Shown: piece by piece, positions 25,401-31,400 of the stretch
How positions within the stretch are numbered: position 1 is the first letter of the stretch
How the letters are laid out: each line of letters starts with the position of its first letter
NCBI GenBank assembly: GCA_030265395.1
Contig: JARFYF010000053.1
Coordinates: 26,787,592 to 26,851,591, forward strand
Direction of reading: 5' to 3'
DNA: 64,000 nt
Origin: Rhina ancylostomus
Lineage: Eukaryota
Translations under genes and position numbers: made by a program
The notes under the pieces: generated by a model
Database searches by the model: none
The model's input: only the letters and a program-made list of their open reading frames with translations
What the model was told of the DNA's origin: nothing

Positions 25401-28400
25401 GCCCACTCGGTGAAAGCAGATCTGCTGAACTGAACATCGTCTCTCCATCCTCGTCATCAATGTCAGACATTTCTGTGTCACTTTCAAAAGCATGTGTGGC
25501 ACTGGTCAGAACATTTGCTTGCTGAGTGCACTCCCACTCCTGTTCATTTAATGTTTGAATCTAAGTGGTCAAGAAAAAATGGCCAGTAACCAAATGCCAT
25601 CGGCTGGTGTACATCTTCAGTTATTATACTATAATTCTTACAGAGAATTCAGATGTGCATTAAATTCAACATGACCAGCTTGCTCTGTGAAACTGCAAAA
25701 TTTACAATTGCCTTTGTCCAAATGCAAGGGCCTTGCTTTGGCCTCGATGCCAGGGAAAATACAGGAATACTGTTCATACTTACAGATAATATGAAAATAA
25801 ATTAAATGAGTCTGAAGATCAACAAGTACCTCCAAGGAGATATGGATAAGTCATTGGAATGACTTGAATGACATGGTGTAGCGACCCGAACACACAGGAC
25901 TCGAACTGCCAATGGTGGCTGTGGACAGAAGCGTGGGAGCATGATGCGAACCAACTGCGGGGCGGGCCTTCTGGCGGGAACCTTAAGTCACGTCCATCCC
26001 ATGTGGGCCAGAGAGGCTCTTGGGTACTTTTGAGCATGCGCGCGTTTTGTCTGTTAGAGTAAAGTGTGCTTTGATCTAGCCTCCATGTCTCTGAGTTTTC
26101 CTTCAGAAATGTGTTGCGTTCAGCTACAATGGTATACTTTGGTTAAAAGTAAAATAATGTACTGAATATCGGTACAAGATTGGGTAATGCAGAAGACACA
26201 TGGATTAGGCAATTCAGGCTCTCAATATGCTAAAAGCAACATTGCAGATGAACAAAGCTATAAAATAAAGCTCATGAAATACTGAGTTTAATAGCAGGAG
26301 GTATTAAGTATAAAACTCAAGATGATGGTGAATCAAGTTATATCAAAGTTTGATTACTTTTGCAGTATTGCAAGCAATGCTATTGAGGAAAGAGTACAAG
26401 TGCAGATTCATTAGGATGCTGTGTGGTACAGGTTATCATAAATACAGCGTCAGGAGAAACATTATTGTTTGCGTTAGAATCCAAGGTACTTTGGTAAATA
26501 TTATTTTAGATTAGGATGGGGACCACATGGACTGGTTATGCAACTTGGCCTATTACACAGTTGCAAATACTGCACAAAACAGTATTAAAAGCTGGATTTT
26601 TTCTGCAATAAAATACTCATTCAAGTTCCTCCCCCCCCCCCCCATATTAGCATTCTGCCTGCCAAAACACACACTAAAATAGAAAAATAAAATGGAACAC
26701 CTGAAATAAAAGTTAATTATAAAATTGCAGAAGGAAATTTGGCAAGATCTTAAAATTGTCTAAGCAAAAGTTGACAGTTACTAATTTGATCATTGAGGAA
26801 TTGCCTTATGGCACCTTCAGTAGTCAGATTGAATGCCAAGTAAGTAAAAGGCCAAAACTAATTAAACCATAAATGCTGATATAAATGCTGCATTCTTTAT
26901 TAATAACAGAACATAGACCACCAAGGCAATCATGGTCAATTAAAGGGAGCATAAAGCGTACTGTTTACTTGTACCAATGCATTATCCAATGATTAGCAAA
27001 GACCCAAGAAGTCAGAGTGACTTCATGCCTGGGTTGGCAGAGACATTTCATTAGTTTGTGGATTACAGGTGGCAACAGTGCTTGAGGTGATCAACAGCAG
27101 AAACATTTAATCATCAAACATCTGTCAAATTGGTTAGTGGAATTCAAGAAATTATGGTTAAGTAAAGTCCCAGTTATAGTTATAGTTCCTGTAGTGTCTG
27201 TTCAGGGTAGAGGAGTAGTGTTTTAATGATATGTAGAAAGGCATAACAGTAAAATCAAAATCTAAATCTCTTGACAGACAGTAAGATTCTGCGCTGACAT
27301 CACCTTATGCCAGTCTGTCACTTAAATATGCAAGTTTCTATGAGATCAAGGTAGGTAATAAATAAGCTAGCTATTCCAGTAACAGCTGCCAAAATGAGGG
27401 TGAATTTATTTAGGAAGAAAAGTTCTACCAAACAAGAAGGCACAGAGCTTCCCAGCATGCTTTTCTTTGGTTACAGTACAAAACAACATTGTTTTCTCAT
27501 CTCTGACAAAAAAGGAATTAATTCACAGAAACAATTCCTACTGAAATGACTTCTCTCCATCACCTTAAGACATTACCAGTCAAGTAATCAGATTGAAGCT
27601 CCCAAGAAAGCAAAATAGCAAAATGTTGGTAAATGAAATAACAATCTCTTTGCTGGTTTCTTTGTACAAATGAAAAACAAGAGTTATGTCAAAAACAAAC
27701 AGCAGGAATTTATCATGACACACACAAAATGCTGGAGGAACTCAGCGGGTCAGGCAGCACCTGTGGAGGGAAATGAACAGTCAATGTTTCGGGCTGAGAC
27801 TCTTCATCAGGACTGGAAAGGAAGAGGGCAGAAGATGCATTTTCTGTGGAGTTTCTACTGACATTATATTGGACAGGCACAAACATTCCTCTGGAAATTC
27901 CAAGATTTGATGAGACATAATGGTACACATAAGTAGGCCACAAACATCTGGATGCCTGTGCTTTCTGGCTCCAGTTACTGTGGATGCTTCCGACAACTAT
28001 GCAACCCTACCCATGATTAATGGATCCAGGTGCAAAAACAGGAATTTTTGGAAAGTGAAAATGTACCACAAAAGCTGAACAAACAGGAAAAACAAGTCAG
28101 TGGGGAACAGAGTAAGGATGCATTCACCTTTTGTAAATAGATTTGCTAATCTGATTACTATATCATAACCAACTCCCCACTGAAGTTATTTTTTCTACTT
28201 CAGTGGGATACATTCTTTAGTATTGACCCAGGACATATGAAGTAATGCAGACATCCTTAAAAACCATACAGGTATAAAGTCTTGTTCGGCATGCTAGAGA
28301 ATTTAAAAAACAAGTTGTCAAAATCAAATATTTTTGAGATTTTTACACTATCAAAGGACTGATACAAAATGGATGATACAGGCACAGTAGTGTAGCGGTT

Positions 28401-31400
28401 GGCATAACGCTATCACAGCGCCAGCAACCTGGGTTCAATTCCAGCCACTGTCTGTAAGGACTTTGTACGTTCTCCCCGTGTCTGCGTGGGTTTCCTCTGG
28501 GTGCTCTAGTTTTCTCCCACATTCCAATTATGAATTAGAAAGTTGAGGGCATGCTGTGTTGGAGCCGGAAGCGTGACGACACTTGCGGGCTGCCCCCAAA
28601 ACACTCTACAGAAAAGATGTATTTCACTGTGTGTTTCAATGTACATGTGACTCATAAAGATATCTTATGATTTTCCTTCTAGAAAACATTCACATTATAA
28701 GCTGCCTGGGTGACTTTTGTCTCATAGACTTTGATTTCAAAAGCCTCAGCCTCAGCCCAGAGTATGCACTGAACCCTGTTGCAGTACCTTTATTCCTACT
28801 TCACAGTGATCAAGCTGCAGAAGATGCATCTTCCAGTCCCCAGGCCTCAGTAATTCATGATTATTATATCTGGACGTTTTAATTTGATTTCAAACTAAAA
28901 TTTATTTATCACCACAAGTTGCTCAACCCTTTTTTTTCACTCCATTACCTTTTAATTTTATACTTTCCACTTGCACATACAATTTCAAGACTATATGTTC
29001 CCTAAAGTCTTGCTATTTTCATTGGTAACTGAAAATTCTCTTTGATGTTGTGCTTATCATCATCAGTGTTTGTTCTGGTACCTTCCATGGTGGCACAGGA
29101 GTGCACCAGTTAGTGCTGCTGCTCACAGCTCCAGGGACCTGGGTATAGTCCTGATCTTGGGTGCAGTCTGCGTGGAGTTTATATGTTCTTGCGATGACCA
29201 GGTGGGTTACAGCCAGATGCTTGGGCTTCCTCGTGTTCCAAAGGTTTACTGGTAGTTCCTTAGCTTTTGTAAACTACCTATTGGTGTTGGTAAGTAGCAA
29301 AGGAACCAAAGGGAAGTTGAAGAGAATAAGCTGCAGGACTCCAGGGAAAATGAAGAGAAGGGGAATGAGACTAATGGGGTTATCCAACTGAGAGCTGGAA
29401 TGCACCCAAATAAGTCAAATGGCTCCCTTCTGTGTCATAGTAGGTAAGCTTTCAAACAATACGTTGGTGCTGAATTTATATGGTATGCAACAATCCTTGT
29501 GCTTTTGGGATTGTAGTTCATCAAGGATGCACTATTACCCAGAATGACAGTTGCAGTTTAGGTTCTACGTGACAGTAATGTTTACACTGCATTGGCTGCT
29601 ACCTTTCTGAACACTAGCATCGTATCAAGGGATCTGTATCTCCATGGATGTACAAGTATGCAGAATTATTTGCTTCATGTTCTTGGGAAGTCTTGAATCC
29701 GTCAATGGTTAAATTAAATTCAGAAAAAAATTTAAAAATCCTCGGGATCATACCACAAGTCACAGGTGACCATTTCAAGGCTATTTTGCTTTGCTGTTAA
29801 ATCAGGGTTGGTATTATCTCTAGAGTCAAAATTAGTCTCACTTCAAACTGTTGCTAAACTTAAACTGTCTGTTTAAAATGTCAAATCTGTTGCCCAGGAG
29901 GGAACTCTGTCATTTCATCTCAACATCTCTACCACAACAGTTAGACATAAAGCCATTAGCTTCATAAGTAATTTTAGTTGGTCACCATAACTACAGCAGA
30001 AACTCCACTTACATGAAGGAATGGGATTTCCACCACATTTCAGGAACTGAAGCCCTGAGAAAATCTACAACATAAATTTAAAAATTTAAATTTTAAATAA
30101 ATGTTTATAGCAAACAGCACGCTGTAATATCTTGTGAGGATGAAAATTATCCCGGGAATCAGAGGGAACCCCTAAGCACTTTTTAAAACCCATTTTGACA
30201 CCACACAGAAGGTATTGCTGCTCAGAGAGGTCCAGGAGACTTTACAATTATGATAAGGTTGCAGTGTAAATCCAGAGTGAAAGCCTGGCCTGATCCCAGA
30301 GGGGAATAATGTGAGTGACTATTCAAAAAAATGCCTTCAGATTAACAGCAGCTGCCTTGTCAAACTTTTTTTATTTAAAGAGCGCATTATGTTGTCCTGC
30401 AACTTCTGCAAGTTTAACTTGCATGATTTGAAAAGGAAATTTTCATATCCACTCTTTTCAAAATTTCCCCTGGGGCTTTAAATCTAGTCCTAAATGAAGG
30501 GAGACCTATATNNNNNNNNNNNNNNNNNNNNNNNNNNNNNNNNNNNNNNNNNNNNNNNNNNNNNNNNNNNNNNNNNNNNNNNNNNNNNNNNNNNNNNNNN
30601 NNNNNNNNNNNGTGGAGGGAAATGAACAGTCAATGTTTCGGGCTGAGACTCGTCATCAGGACTGGAAAGGAAGAGGGCAGGAGCCAGGATAAAAGAGTAG
30701 GGGCAGGGAGAGGAGCACTAGCTGGTGGGAGACAGGCGAGTCCAGGTGAGAGGGGGAAGGTAGGTAGGTGGGGGAGGGACTGATGAAAGAAGCTGGGAGG
30801 TGATAAGTGGAAGAGGCAAAGGGCTGAAGAAGGAGGAATCTGATAAGAGAGGACAGTAGACCATAGCAAAAGGAAAGGAGGGGGGCACGCTGTGAGGGCA
30901 GGGGAGGAGAATGAGAAGGAGTGAAGGGGCCGTGGGAATGAGGGAAAGGCGGGAGAGGATAATAAAGGGGACTGGTTTCTGGATGTAAGGCATCAGATTC
31001 TTTCTTCTTCAGCCCTTTACCTCTTCCACCTATCACATCCCAGCTTCTTACATCAGTCCCTTTTACCCCTTCTCCTCCACCTACCTACCTTCCCCCTCTC
31101 ACCTGGATTCACCTATCACCTGCCAGCTCGTGCTTTTCCCCCTCCCCCTCTCCCTACCCTTTTATTCTGGCTTCCGCCGTTTTTTCCAGTCTTGATGAAG
31201 GGTCTCAGCCGAAACATCGACTGCTCATTTCCCTCCATAGATGCTGCCTGACCCTCTGAGTTCCTTCAGCATTTTGAGTACCTTGCTCCAGATTTCCAGC
31301 ATCTACAGAATCTCTTGTGTCTTGGCAGGAATTTATTTCGGCTTATCTAGCAACCTTCTTGCTATAGGTTCTTGTCTGGAACATCACTTGCTTTTTTCCC

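What the first reader, a model, noticed from the sequence alone, without database searches (positions are those of the whole stretch)
27778..31223. Repeat family carrying minimal, dimer-type hammerhead ribozymes inside a liprin-alpha intron
Seen: three motifs (27778-27815 minus, 30627-30664 minus, 31187-31223 plus) share the layout CAGTC-CTGATGA-[stem II]-GAAAC-NTH-GACTG. Stem I (CAGTC/GACTG) is perfect in all three. A fourth copy at 2401-2441 (minus) keeps a perfect stem II GGGTC-TC-GACCC but has an insertion in the core. Established: CUGANGA, GAAA and NUH form the hammerhead core, and Penelope-like retroelements carry minimal type I hammerheads with a palindromic helix III that cleave as dimers. 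Inference: the ancestral sequence is GAAAC-GTC-GACTG with an ACGT palindrome (GTC survives at about 2478-2480), and the ATT/ATC triplets here are CpG deamination products that break helix III. Two copies are sense to the pre-mRNA, 2.85 kb apart in one intron, so their inactivation could be neutral decay or selection against cutting the host transcript. At least six family members occur in 64 kb, suggesting a very abundant ribozyme-bearing non-autonomous retroelement.
Basis: partly seen in the sequence, partly recalled or inferred. Interest (0 to 1): 0.75.

Follow-up and report, generated by a model that had tools for sequence, protein, structure and literature searches.

The report
Dead Penelope ribozyme ends in ray
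Three mutated hammerhead-ribozyme motifs in an intron of a ray's liprin-alpha-4 gene are likely dead end-pieces of a known class of jumping gene (Penelope-like), and probably belong to one old insertion that may have carried 2.7 kb of host DNA between its ends.

Summary
The motifs are real: 3 descriptor hits against 0.03 expected. They fit the minimal type I hammerheads described for Penelope-like element (PLE) terminal repeats. None is intact: helix III pairs 2 of 4, stem II has a mismatch, and the plus-strand copy has U at core C3. The host is a ray; the gene is liprin-alpha-4 on the minus strand.

One 12-nt direct repeat brackets all three motifs (27702-27713, 31325-31336). Inside lie a 123-nt end-piece, 2.7 kb of single-copy DNA, a gap, a second direct end-piece (70 of 72 identical to the first) and an inverted copy with a 37-nt tail. 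This 'two direct, one inverted, tail, target duplication' layout is published for rotifer PLEs that captured host DNA. Both junctions of the first piece exist in four organisms up to 7% apart, so it is old and real.

CpG decay explains the ribozyme loss; nothing supports selection against cutting the transcript. No PLE reading frame could be linked, no genome-wide consensus built, and no donor copy of the spacer was seen. Verdict: new member of a known kind; capture about even odds.

The parts
27702..27713 (.). Left copy of a 12-nt direct repeat, candidate target-site duplication (TSD) of the whole C-X-D-E unit
   Evidence: Only two occurrences in the window, here and 31325-31336; 12 of 20000 random 60-nt window pairs share 12 nt. 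Lies 32 nt from a conserved anchor, against 33 nt for the TSD-bounded short arm H.
27714..27836 (-). Arm C: 5'-truncated PLE terminal-repeat piece without tail; holds hammerhead motif 27778-27815
   Evidence: Single-copy contigs cross its outer junction (ending 27739-27745) and inner junction (starting 27805-27808) in 4 of 4 runs (table 8).
27778..27815 (-). Minimal hammerhead motif C: core words and stem I intact, stem II 3 of 4 pairs, helix III 2 of 4 pairs in a dimer, site AUU
   Evidence: monomer fold z = -1.3, not the hammerhead fold.
27837..30511 (.). Spacer X, 2.7 kb: single-copy non-coding DNA with two SINE-like repeats (28384-28679 and about 29122-29190)
   Evidence: Depth about equal to one contig in the unique bins; matches in the window only through the SINE-like parts; 0 of 34 frames from X, D and F pass a Pfam cut-off.
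30512..30611 (.). Assembly gap (100 N) hiding the outer end of arm D
30612..30991 (-). Arm D: longer direct copy; hammerhead motif 30627-30664; 30612-30844 pairs with E; 30845-30991 is multi-copy and assigned to D by inference
   Evidence: 70 of 72 identical to C; 201 of 228 aligned bases identical to E; depth thousands of times single copy.
30992..31324 (+). Arm E: inverted 5'-truncated copy; hammerhead motif 31187-31223 (core C3 to U, stem II one base short); 37-nt tail about 31288-31324
   Evidence: Outer junction crossed by single-copy contigs in 2 of 4 runs (X1, X2); not shown for X3, X6.
31325..31336 (.). Right copy of the 12-nt candidate TSD
   Evidence: 69 nt from the anchor, against 64 nt for the TSD-bounded tailed arm G.
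2313..2549 (.). Fold-back insert A/B of the same family: arm A (-, tailed, motif 2401-2441) and arm B (+, short end, motif about 2450-2487), running into a (TG)n tract
   Evidence: no TSD of 6 nt or more found.
49768..49951 (.). Fold-back insert H/G (49783-49936) with 15-nt TSD (49768-49782, 49937-49951); arms join at the helix III palindrome; H short, G with 31-nt tail
   Evidence: 2 of 20000 random pairs share 15 nt.
58539..58650 (-). Solo tailed arm F with a collapsed hammerhead region
   Evidence: no TSD found.
33070..33190 (+). Strongly diverged solo arm I, same intron; boundaries approximate
25333..25560 (-). Liprin-alpha-4 exon downstream of the host intron
   Evidence: tblastn with P0007, residues 572-647, 97%.
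34084..34269 (-). Liprin-alpha-4 exon upstream of the host intron
   Evidence: tblastn with P0007, residues 525-580; GT donor seen in the same call.

Best explanation
The three motifs are mutated minimal hammerheads, likely dead, that probably lie in the terminal repeats of one old Penelope-like insertion: two direct end-pieces around 2.7 kb of likely captured host DNA, plus one inverted, tailed end-piece, all inside a 12-nt direct repeat. Shown: the motifs, their defects, the order TSD-C-X-gap-D-E-TSD, the short/tailed end asymmetry, and the age of C. Inferred mechanism: a PLE protein acting in trans made a 12-nt staggered cut. From the left nick its RT started at the inner of the two internal start sites, copied about 120 nt through the uncleaved ribozyme (C), jumped, copied the spacer and then the same terminal repeat again (D). 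From the right nick a second cDNA began at the outer start site on another family RNA (E, tailed), and the two cDNAs were joined head to head. Methyl-CpG deamination then removed the helix III palindrome. In the pre-mRNA D would pair with antisense E, so no cleavage of the host transcript is expected. My odds: PLE terminal-repeat origin 0.9; ribozymes inactive by neutral decay 0.85; single insertion with capture 0.5.
For: 12-nt repeat occurs only at the two outer ends, at the same distances from a conserved anchor as in the independent H/G insert (32/69 against 33/64 nt). One short and one long end in 3 of 3 two-ended inserts; tail 37 and 31 nt where a TSD fixes it, inside the 30-40 nt of PMC8557442 (passage) and matching two RT start sites in PMC11167929. 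Same layout published in Adineta, including non-coding captures and a unique spacer before the 3' repeat (PMC3846280). C/D differ at 2 of 72, D/E at 27 of 228 (Fisher p=0.02), as expected if C and D share a template. Both C junctions exist in 4 of 4 runs from organisms 0, 2.3, 6.9 and 6.3% from the window. Window CpG o/e 0.21; helix III reads CA or TG in 7 of 7 readable arms. D/E hairpin -400 kcal/mol, z=-21 against 20 shuffles; D motif bases pair with antisense E at mean probability 0.89.
Against: No donor copy of X: in its unique bins the depth equals that of the single local contig at 85% likeness (for example 5.23 against 5.22 in X1, 5.6 against 5.6 in X2), so a copy model needs the donor lost, diverged or filtered out. 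No empty site was seen. The gap hides D's outer end, and no listed contig spans the unit or confirms D 30612-30828 as locus-specific. E's outer junction is shown in only 2 of 4 runs. C and D share derived changes that a later local duplication explains equally well. No RT or GIY-YIG frame was linked. No TSD for A/B, F or I. No hammerhead match in Rfam. No cleavage data.
Confidence: 0.5

Rival explanations
1. X is native intron DNA. The real insertion is the ordinary fold-back D/E with its own TSD (left copy hidden in the gap); C plus the 12-nt word is a later local templated duplicate of D's outer end, made during repair or fork stalling at the palindrome. A variant has X moved into the left arm with duplication of the arm's end.
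For: Needs no donor elsewhere (none seen). Explains C close to D with shared derived changes while D/E are 12% apart. A 13-nt word spanning C's inner junction recurs inside X at 28817 (background 45 of 5000), as a local template switch would leave.
Against: The duplicate would have to start within the short hidden stretch just left of the TSD: X's visible right end has no likeness to C's left flank. Left-flank contigs run through the 12-nt word to 27739-27745 in 4 of 4 runs, where an identical third copy would tend to break them earlier (weak, inferred from graph assembly). The layout has a published PLE precedent.
Confidence: 0.3
2. C and D/E are independent insertions of one subfamily, and the 12-nt repeat is chance.
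For: The family is extremely abundant, so two copies in 3 kb are unremarkable; subfamily-specific changes could make C resemble D.
Against: 12 of 20000 background for the repeat, 7 flank pairs tested, and the repeat sits at the expected distance at both ends. C alone has no flanking repeat above 7 nt.
Confidence: 0.07
3. Assembly error: the C-like first bases of D were borrowed from C at the gap edge, or the pieces were ordered wrongly across the gap.
For: D starts at a 100-N gap and its first 40 bases are identical to C; no contig confirms that stretch or spans the gap.
Against: D differs from C at 2 positions; both C junctions and most of X are confirmed in three other organisms. An error in D would not remove the 12-nt repeat at the two outer ends.
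Confidence: 0.08
4. The family is not PLE-derived but a stand-alone retrozyme or SINE-like element that uses its hammerhead to cut out circular or unit-length RNAs.
For: No PLE frame was linked; tandem retrozymes are reported in one chondrichthyan (10.64898/2026.07.22.740005).
Against: No head-to-tail units; upstream of the motif C and D continue into different sequence; arms C, D, E, A and B extend past the cleavage site, so uncut RNA was copied; tail and inverted arms are PLE features.
Confidence: 0.05
5. The sense copies were inactivated by selection because they cut the liprin pre-mRNA as a dimer (an add-on claim, compatible with either origin).
For: C and D are sense and in one intron; helix III CpG is kept in 0 of 5 independent cases against 6 of 13 at three other CpG positions (hand-scored). 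Tandem retrozymes are depleted from introns in Xenopus.
Against: The difference is not significant (p=0.11); antisense arms B and E lost the same CpG; D is predicted to be sequestered by antisense E; PLE minimal hammerheads cleave weakly even as dimers (PMC4209133) or need the PLE protein (PMC11167929).
Confidence: 0.1

Closest known systems
Minimal type I hammerheads (min-HHR) in PLE terminal repeats (Cervera and de la Pena 2014, PMC4209133)
   Same: Core CUGANGA plus one unpaired base, G-C opening of stem II, GAAA, two-base helix III, U-H site, short stem I; mostly single truncated copies, and pairs on opposite strands 100-700 bp apart.
   Different: No cartilaginous fish among the motifs listed in their supplement file 2 (file 1 could not be searched). 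The copies here have lost the palindrome; stem II is short (4 bp plus tetraloop at best).
EN+ PLE insertion units with direct and inverted pLTRs and tail; host-DNA captures by Pen3a_Av and Pen1_Av (Arkhipova et al. 2013, PMC3846280)
   Same: Two direct repeats around unrelated DNA, one adjacent inverted repeat, one-sided tail, TSD around the whole unit; a unique spacer before the 3' repeat.
   Different: Vertebrate host, very high copy number, 12-15-nt TSD against 8-10, non-coding cargo; no empty site, no donor and no autonomous partner shown here, whereas they showed an empty allele.
Poseidon PAc of Anolis carolinensis (Frangieh et al. 2024, PMC11167929)
   Same: Two insertion ends downstream of the hammerhead separated by a tail; uncut RNA used as template; both strands nicked and extended.
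   Different: PAc's reading frame starts at stem II; no long frame starts there in these copies. No sequence comparison with PAc was made.
Non-LTR retrozymes of animals (Li, Clavereau and Pollet, bioRxiv 10.64898/2026.07.22.740005)
   Same: Non-coding, hammerhead-bearing, derived from PLE terminal repeats; reported in one chondrichthyan.
   Different: Defined as tandem units each with a hammerhead; here the copies are dispersed, inverted or separated by unique DNA.

Membership tests
Minimal type I hammerhead of PLEs | Core CUGANGA ... GAAA ... UH in order | tested here: met
   Met in C and D; E has U at position 3; A and B are degenerate.
Minimal type I hammerhead of PLEs | Stem I closing 5' and 3' ends (type I) | tested here: met
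   5 of 5 pairs in C, D and E.
Minimal type I hammerhead of PLEs | Stem II of at least 4 bp opening with G-C after one unpaired base | tested here: inconclusive
   3 of first 4 pairs in C, D, E; fully paired in A and B. Met only for the inferred ancestor.
Minimal type I hammerhead of PLEs | Palindromic helix III allowing a dimer | tested here: not met
   0 of 7 readable arms; all read CA or TG, 2 of 4 dimer pairs. These copies are decayed relics, not working members; the ancestral CG is inferred.
Minimal type I hammerhead of PLEs | Self-cleavage as dimer or with PLE protein | not testable with these tools
   Needs an in vitro assay.
Rfam hammerhead families | Covariance-model match | tested here: not met
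   No hammerhead family at E<=10.
EN+ Penelope-like element insertion | Terminal repeats in direct and inverted orientation, 5'-truncated | tested here: met
   C/D direct, E inverted; A/B and H/G inverted.
EN+ Penelope-like element insertion | 30-40-nt tail at one end only | tested here: met
   37 nt (E against C), 31 nt (G against H); A long, B short.
EN+ Penelope-like element insertion | Target-site duplication | tested here: met
   2 of 5 places (12 and 15 nt); none found for A/B, F, I.
EN+ Penelope-like element insertion | Linked single frame with telomerase-like RT and GIY-YIG nuclease | tested here: inconclusive
   None in or near the copies; protein searches with translated arms empty or low-complexity only; no host genome held.
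PLE-mediated host-DNA capture | Unrelated DNA between two direct terminal repeats inside one TSD | tested here: met
   D's outer end is hidden by the gap.
PLE-mediated host-DNA capture | Empty site with one copy of the target, and a donor copy of the cargo | tested here: inconclusive
   All 4 runs laid carry C joined to X; no second copy of X's unique bins at 85% likeness; contigs show presence, not absence.
Non-LTR retrozyme | Head-to-tail tandem units, each with a hammerhead | tested here: not met
   No such array among the 9 arms.

The most novel reading that the evidence does not exclude
A Penelope-like retroelement in a vertebrate captured and moved 2.7 kb of unique host DNA in one event: its RT started at the internal start site, copied about 120 nt, jumped along a read-through RNA and copied the flank and the same terminal repeat again, while a second RT on a different RNA made the tailed inverted end. 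With a family of the order of 1e5 end-pieces, PLE-driven shuffling of intronic and possibly exonic DNA could be a routine force in ray and shark genomes, countable through the signature 'short end - unique spacer - near-identical direct repeat - inverted tailed end - shared TSD'.
Probability: 0.45. Interest if true: 0.55.

Novelty: new member of a known kind. Interest (0 to 1): 0.33.

Why it matters
The ribozyme itself is ordinary: such motifs are known in thousands of copies in fish, coelacanth and frog genomes, and these are broken. What is useful is the anatomy. If the unit is one insertion, it extends PLE host-DNA capture, which I found documented only for a rotifer, to a vertebrate with a huge PLE load, and it gives an in vivo footprint for the two-start-site, two-strand mechanism seen in vitro for the anole element. 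Annotation aside, long intronic fold-backs like D/E also explain assembly gaps in these genomes.

Tried and rejected
Whole host genome: none held, so no genome-wide consensus or sense/antisense count. Rfam: no hammerhead hit in 3 scans. DNA pattern scans for relatives: 0 in viral contigs, 0 in prokaryote genomes, 1 in metagenomes, a 22-nt chance match in a GC-rich contig with nothing else shared (L001). Protein searches with translated arms: 36 candidates, none significant; 3 hits, all long low-identity proline-rich matches, rejected. Pfam on 34 frames: 4 weak hits, all far under their cut-offs. Sequencing runs: no RNA holder listed, which says nothing on expression. Read laying showed 40 of 314 difference rows, none at the hammerhead positions, so the family letters at helix III were not read; parts without cover in X2 and X6 (28701-28960) are not evidence of deletion. 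Rolling-circle origin of C and D rejected because they continue upstream into different sequence. 'C is only an assembly duplicate of D' rejected because both C junctions exist in other organisms. Monomer folds are not better than shuffles (z from -1.3 to +0.5). Lunse et al. (PMC5785218) is not held; I saw its title only. Searches for a printed description of this shark/ray family and of PLE capture in vertebrates listed nothing that describes it; Repbase and Dfam were not available, and the family is very probably catalogued there (my expectation, no call).

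
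Full report
Setting. An exon peptide matches solved liprin-alpha SAM domains, and another has ray liprin-alpha-4 proteins as best hits, 99-100% identical to Pristis, with sharks below. The host is therefore a batoid. Eighteen tblastn segments of P0007 map in order on the minus strand, with residues 525-580 at 34084-34269 and 572-647 at 25333-25560, so 27778-31223 is inside one 8.5-kb intron. CpG observed/expected is 0.21. No whole genome is held.

The motifs. A relaxed descriptor finds exactly the three motifs named, against a mean of 0.03 in 100 shuffles; the strict version, demanding paired stem II and palindromic helix III, finds none. I call them C (27778-27815, minus), D (30627-30664, minus) and E (31187-31223, plus). 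Stem I is perfect in all. Stem II pairs 3 of 4, helix III would pair 2 of 4 in any dimer, and E has U at core position 3. Their layout follows the consensus for minimal PLE hammerheads in the supplement of PMC4209133. Rfam does not see them, and monomer folds are no better than shuffles.

The family. Nine arms at five places align: A/B near 2313-2549, C-D-E, I near 33130, H/G at 49783-49936 and F near 58600. At the helix III dinucleotide 7 arms are readable (F and I are not): five read CA and two TG, the two single-step deamination products of CG. C/D count as one event and G/H share the same base pairs, which leaves 5 independent cases, 0 retaining CG; three other inferred CpG positions are retained in 6 of 13 (hand-scored; Fisher p=0.11). 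Antisense arms B and E lost it too. Neutral decay is sufficient. Logan contigs from four runs pile on the terminal 120 nt at a summed depth near 6.7e5 in run X1 against 5-8 on the flanks, and at 1-4e4 on the inner arms. The tool warns that this is no copy number; I take it only as an order of 1e5 short end-pieces and far fewer longer ones.

Of 7 flank pairs tested, 2 share a long direct repeat: 12 nt at 27702 and 31325, outside C and E, and 15 nt at 49768 and 49937, outside H and G; random 60-nt pairs do so 12 and 2 times in 20000. Measured from a conserved anchor, the short ends stop at 32 (C) and 33 nt (H) and the long ends at 69 (E) and 64 nt (G); B is short and A long. This is the one-sided 30-40-nt tail of PLEs (PMC8557442 passage), which in the anole element equals the distance between two RT start sites (PMC11167929). 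The unit thus reads TSD, C (123 nt), spacer X (2675 nt), gap, D (at least 380 nt), inverted E (333 nt), TSD. [quoted passage not shown]

Is it real and how old? Single-copy contigs cross C's outer junction and its junction with X in 4 of 4 runs (table 8). X1 may be the source of the assembly; X2, X3 and X6 are other organisms and studies, 2.3% (62 of 2646), 6.9% (192 of 2783) and 6.3% (147 of 2327) from the window over the listed single-copy pieces, repeat-only pieces left out. E's outer junction is shown in X1 and X2 only. No listed piece spans the gap. C and D differ at 2 of 72, D and E at 27 of 228 plus indels (p=0.02); 2 differences are compatible with an origin just before the species split (P=0.17).

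How it most likely arose. Inferred, by analogy with PMC11167929 and PMC3846280: a PLE protein in trans cut the target with a 12-nt stagger; one cDNA began at the inner start site, passed through the uncut ribozyme, jumped after about 120 nt, copied X and then the same repeat again; the other began at the outer site on a different RNA; the two met head to head near 30991, where a short imperfect hairpin sits. The main difficulty is that no donor of X shows: in its unique bins depth equals the one local contig. The rival, a normal D/E fold-back in native DNA with C and the 12-nt word copied locally later, needs no donor and fits the 13-nt word that spans C's inner junction and recurs at 28817 (45 of 5000 background), but it needs the duplicate to begin inside the short hidden stretch. 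I put capture at 0.5, local duplication at 0.3, the rest on chance, assembly error or a non-PLE origin.

Effect on the host gene. On the transcribed strand antisense E precedes D; the region folds into one hairpin of -400 kcal/mol (z=-21, 20 shuffles) in which D's motif pairs with antisense E at mean probability 0.89. Even intact minimal hammerheads gave no monomer and low dimer cleavage (PMC4209133) or needed the protein. Cleavage of the liprin pre-mRNA is therefore unlikely now and was probably unlikely at insertion.

What was not shown. No PLE reading frame was linked, and no relatives were found in the prokaryotic, viral or metagenome collections. Four earlier notes of this scan describe similar fold-back PLE ends in shark-type windows; they are unchecked AI notes and not independent support; none holds all the words of my capture query.

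Papers seen: PMC4209133, parts 1-2 of 4 and supplement file 2 parts 1-2 of 3; PMC11167929, parts 1-2 of 4; PMC3846280, parts 1-4 of 5; bioRxiv 10.64898/2026.07.22.740005, parts 1-3 of 5, supplements not seen, and they may list this family; passages only of PMC8557442, PMC6765202, PMC8969392, PMC6431247 and bioRxiv 10.1101/2025.06.08.657570, the last with 0 occurrences of 'Penelope'. The name HE1 for the SINE-like repeats is recalled; one search lists papers using the name but I made no sequence comparison.

Verdict. A real but decayed member of a known class, scored 0.33. The one feature worth a follow-up is the possible host-DNA capture, which a single long read across the gap and one outgroup alignment would settle.

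Noticed in passing
window 27828-27847 and 28817-28839: C's inner junction is a near-perfect 20-nt palindrome, and its first 13 nt recur 990 nt into the spacer, followed there by a few family-like bases; background 45 of 5000. Could be a template-switch scar or the TSD of a later 1-kb insert.
   Followed up: partly
window 49826-49841: The H/G fold-back joins exactly at the self-complementary helix III word, a few bases upstream of the cleavage site; fits annealing or central deletion through that palindrome rather than truncation at the cut.
   Followed up: partly
window 12637-12699 and 12973-13035: Another inverted repeat, 63-nt arms, 89% complementary, 273 nt apart, not hit by the PLE arm queries; possibly a miniature DNA transposon.
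   Followed up: no
window 8901-9191, 28384-28679, 29122-29190, 47547-47679, 49417-49486, 58029-58090: SINE-like family, even deeper in read pile-up than the PLE ends; HE1-like by recall only.
   Followed up: no
window 488-787, 4559-5031, 16436-16780, 41111-41812, 59023-59250: Frames that read like decayed CR1/L2-type LINE reverse transcriptase and 3' parts (family recalled, not scanned).
   Followed up: no
window 49997-50114 (+): Weak 5S rRNA-like match (23.5 bits, below the 38-bit cut-off); possibly a 5S-derived SINE or pseudogene next to the H/G insert.
   Followed up: no
window 14046-14085 and 15138-15177: 40-nt direct repeat, 98% identical, 1092 nt apart, on either side of the exon at 14652-14747.
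   Followed up: no
window 30485-30508: The last bases before the gap loosely resemble the hammerhead core on the plus strand; may be chance or a further decayed fragment.
   Followed up: no
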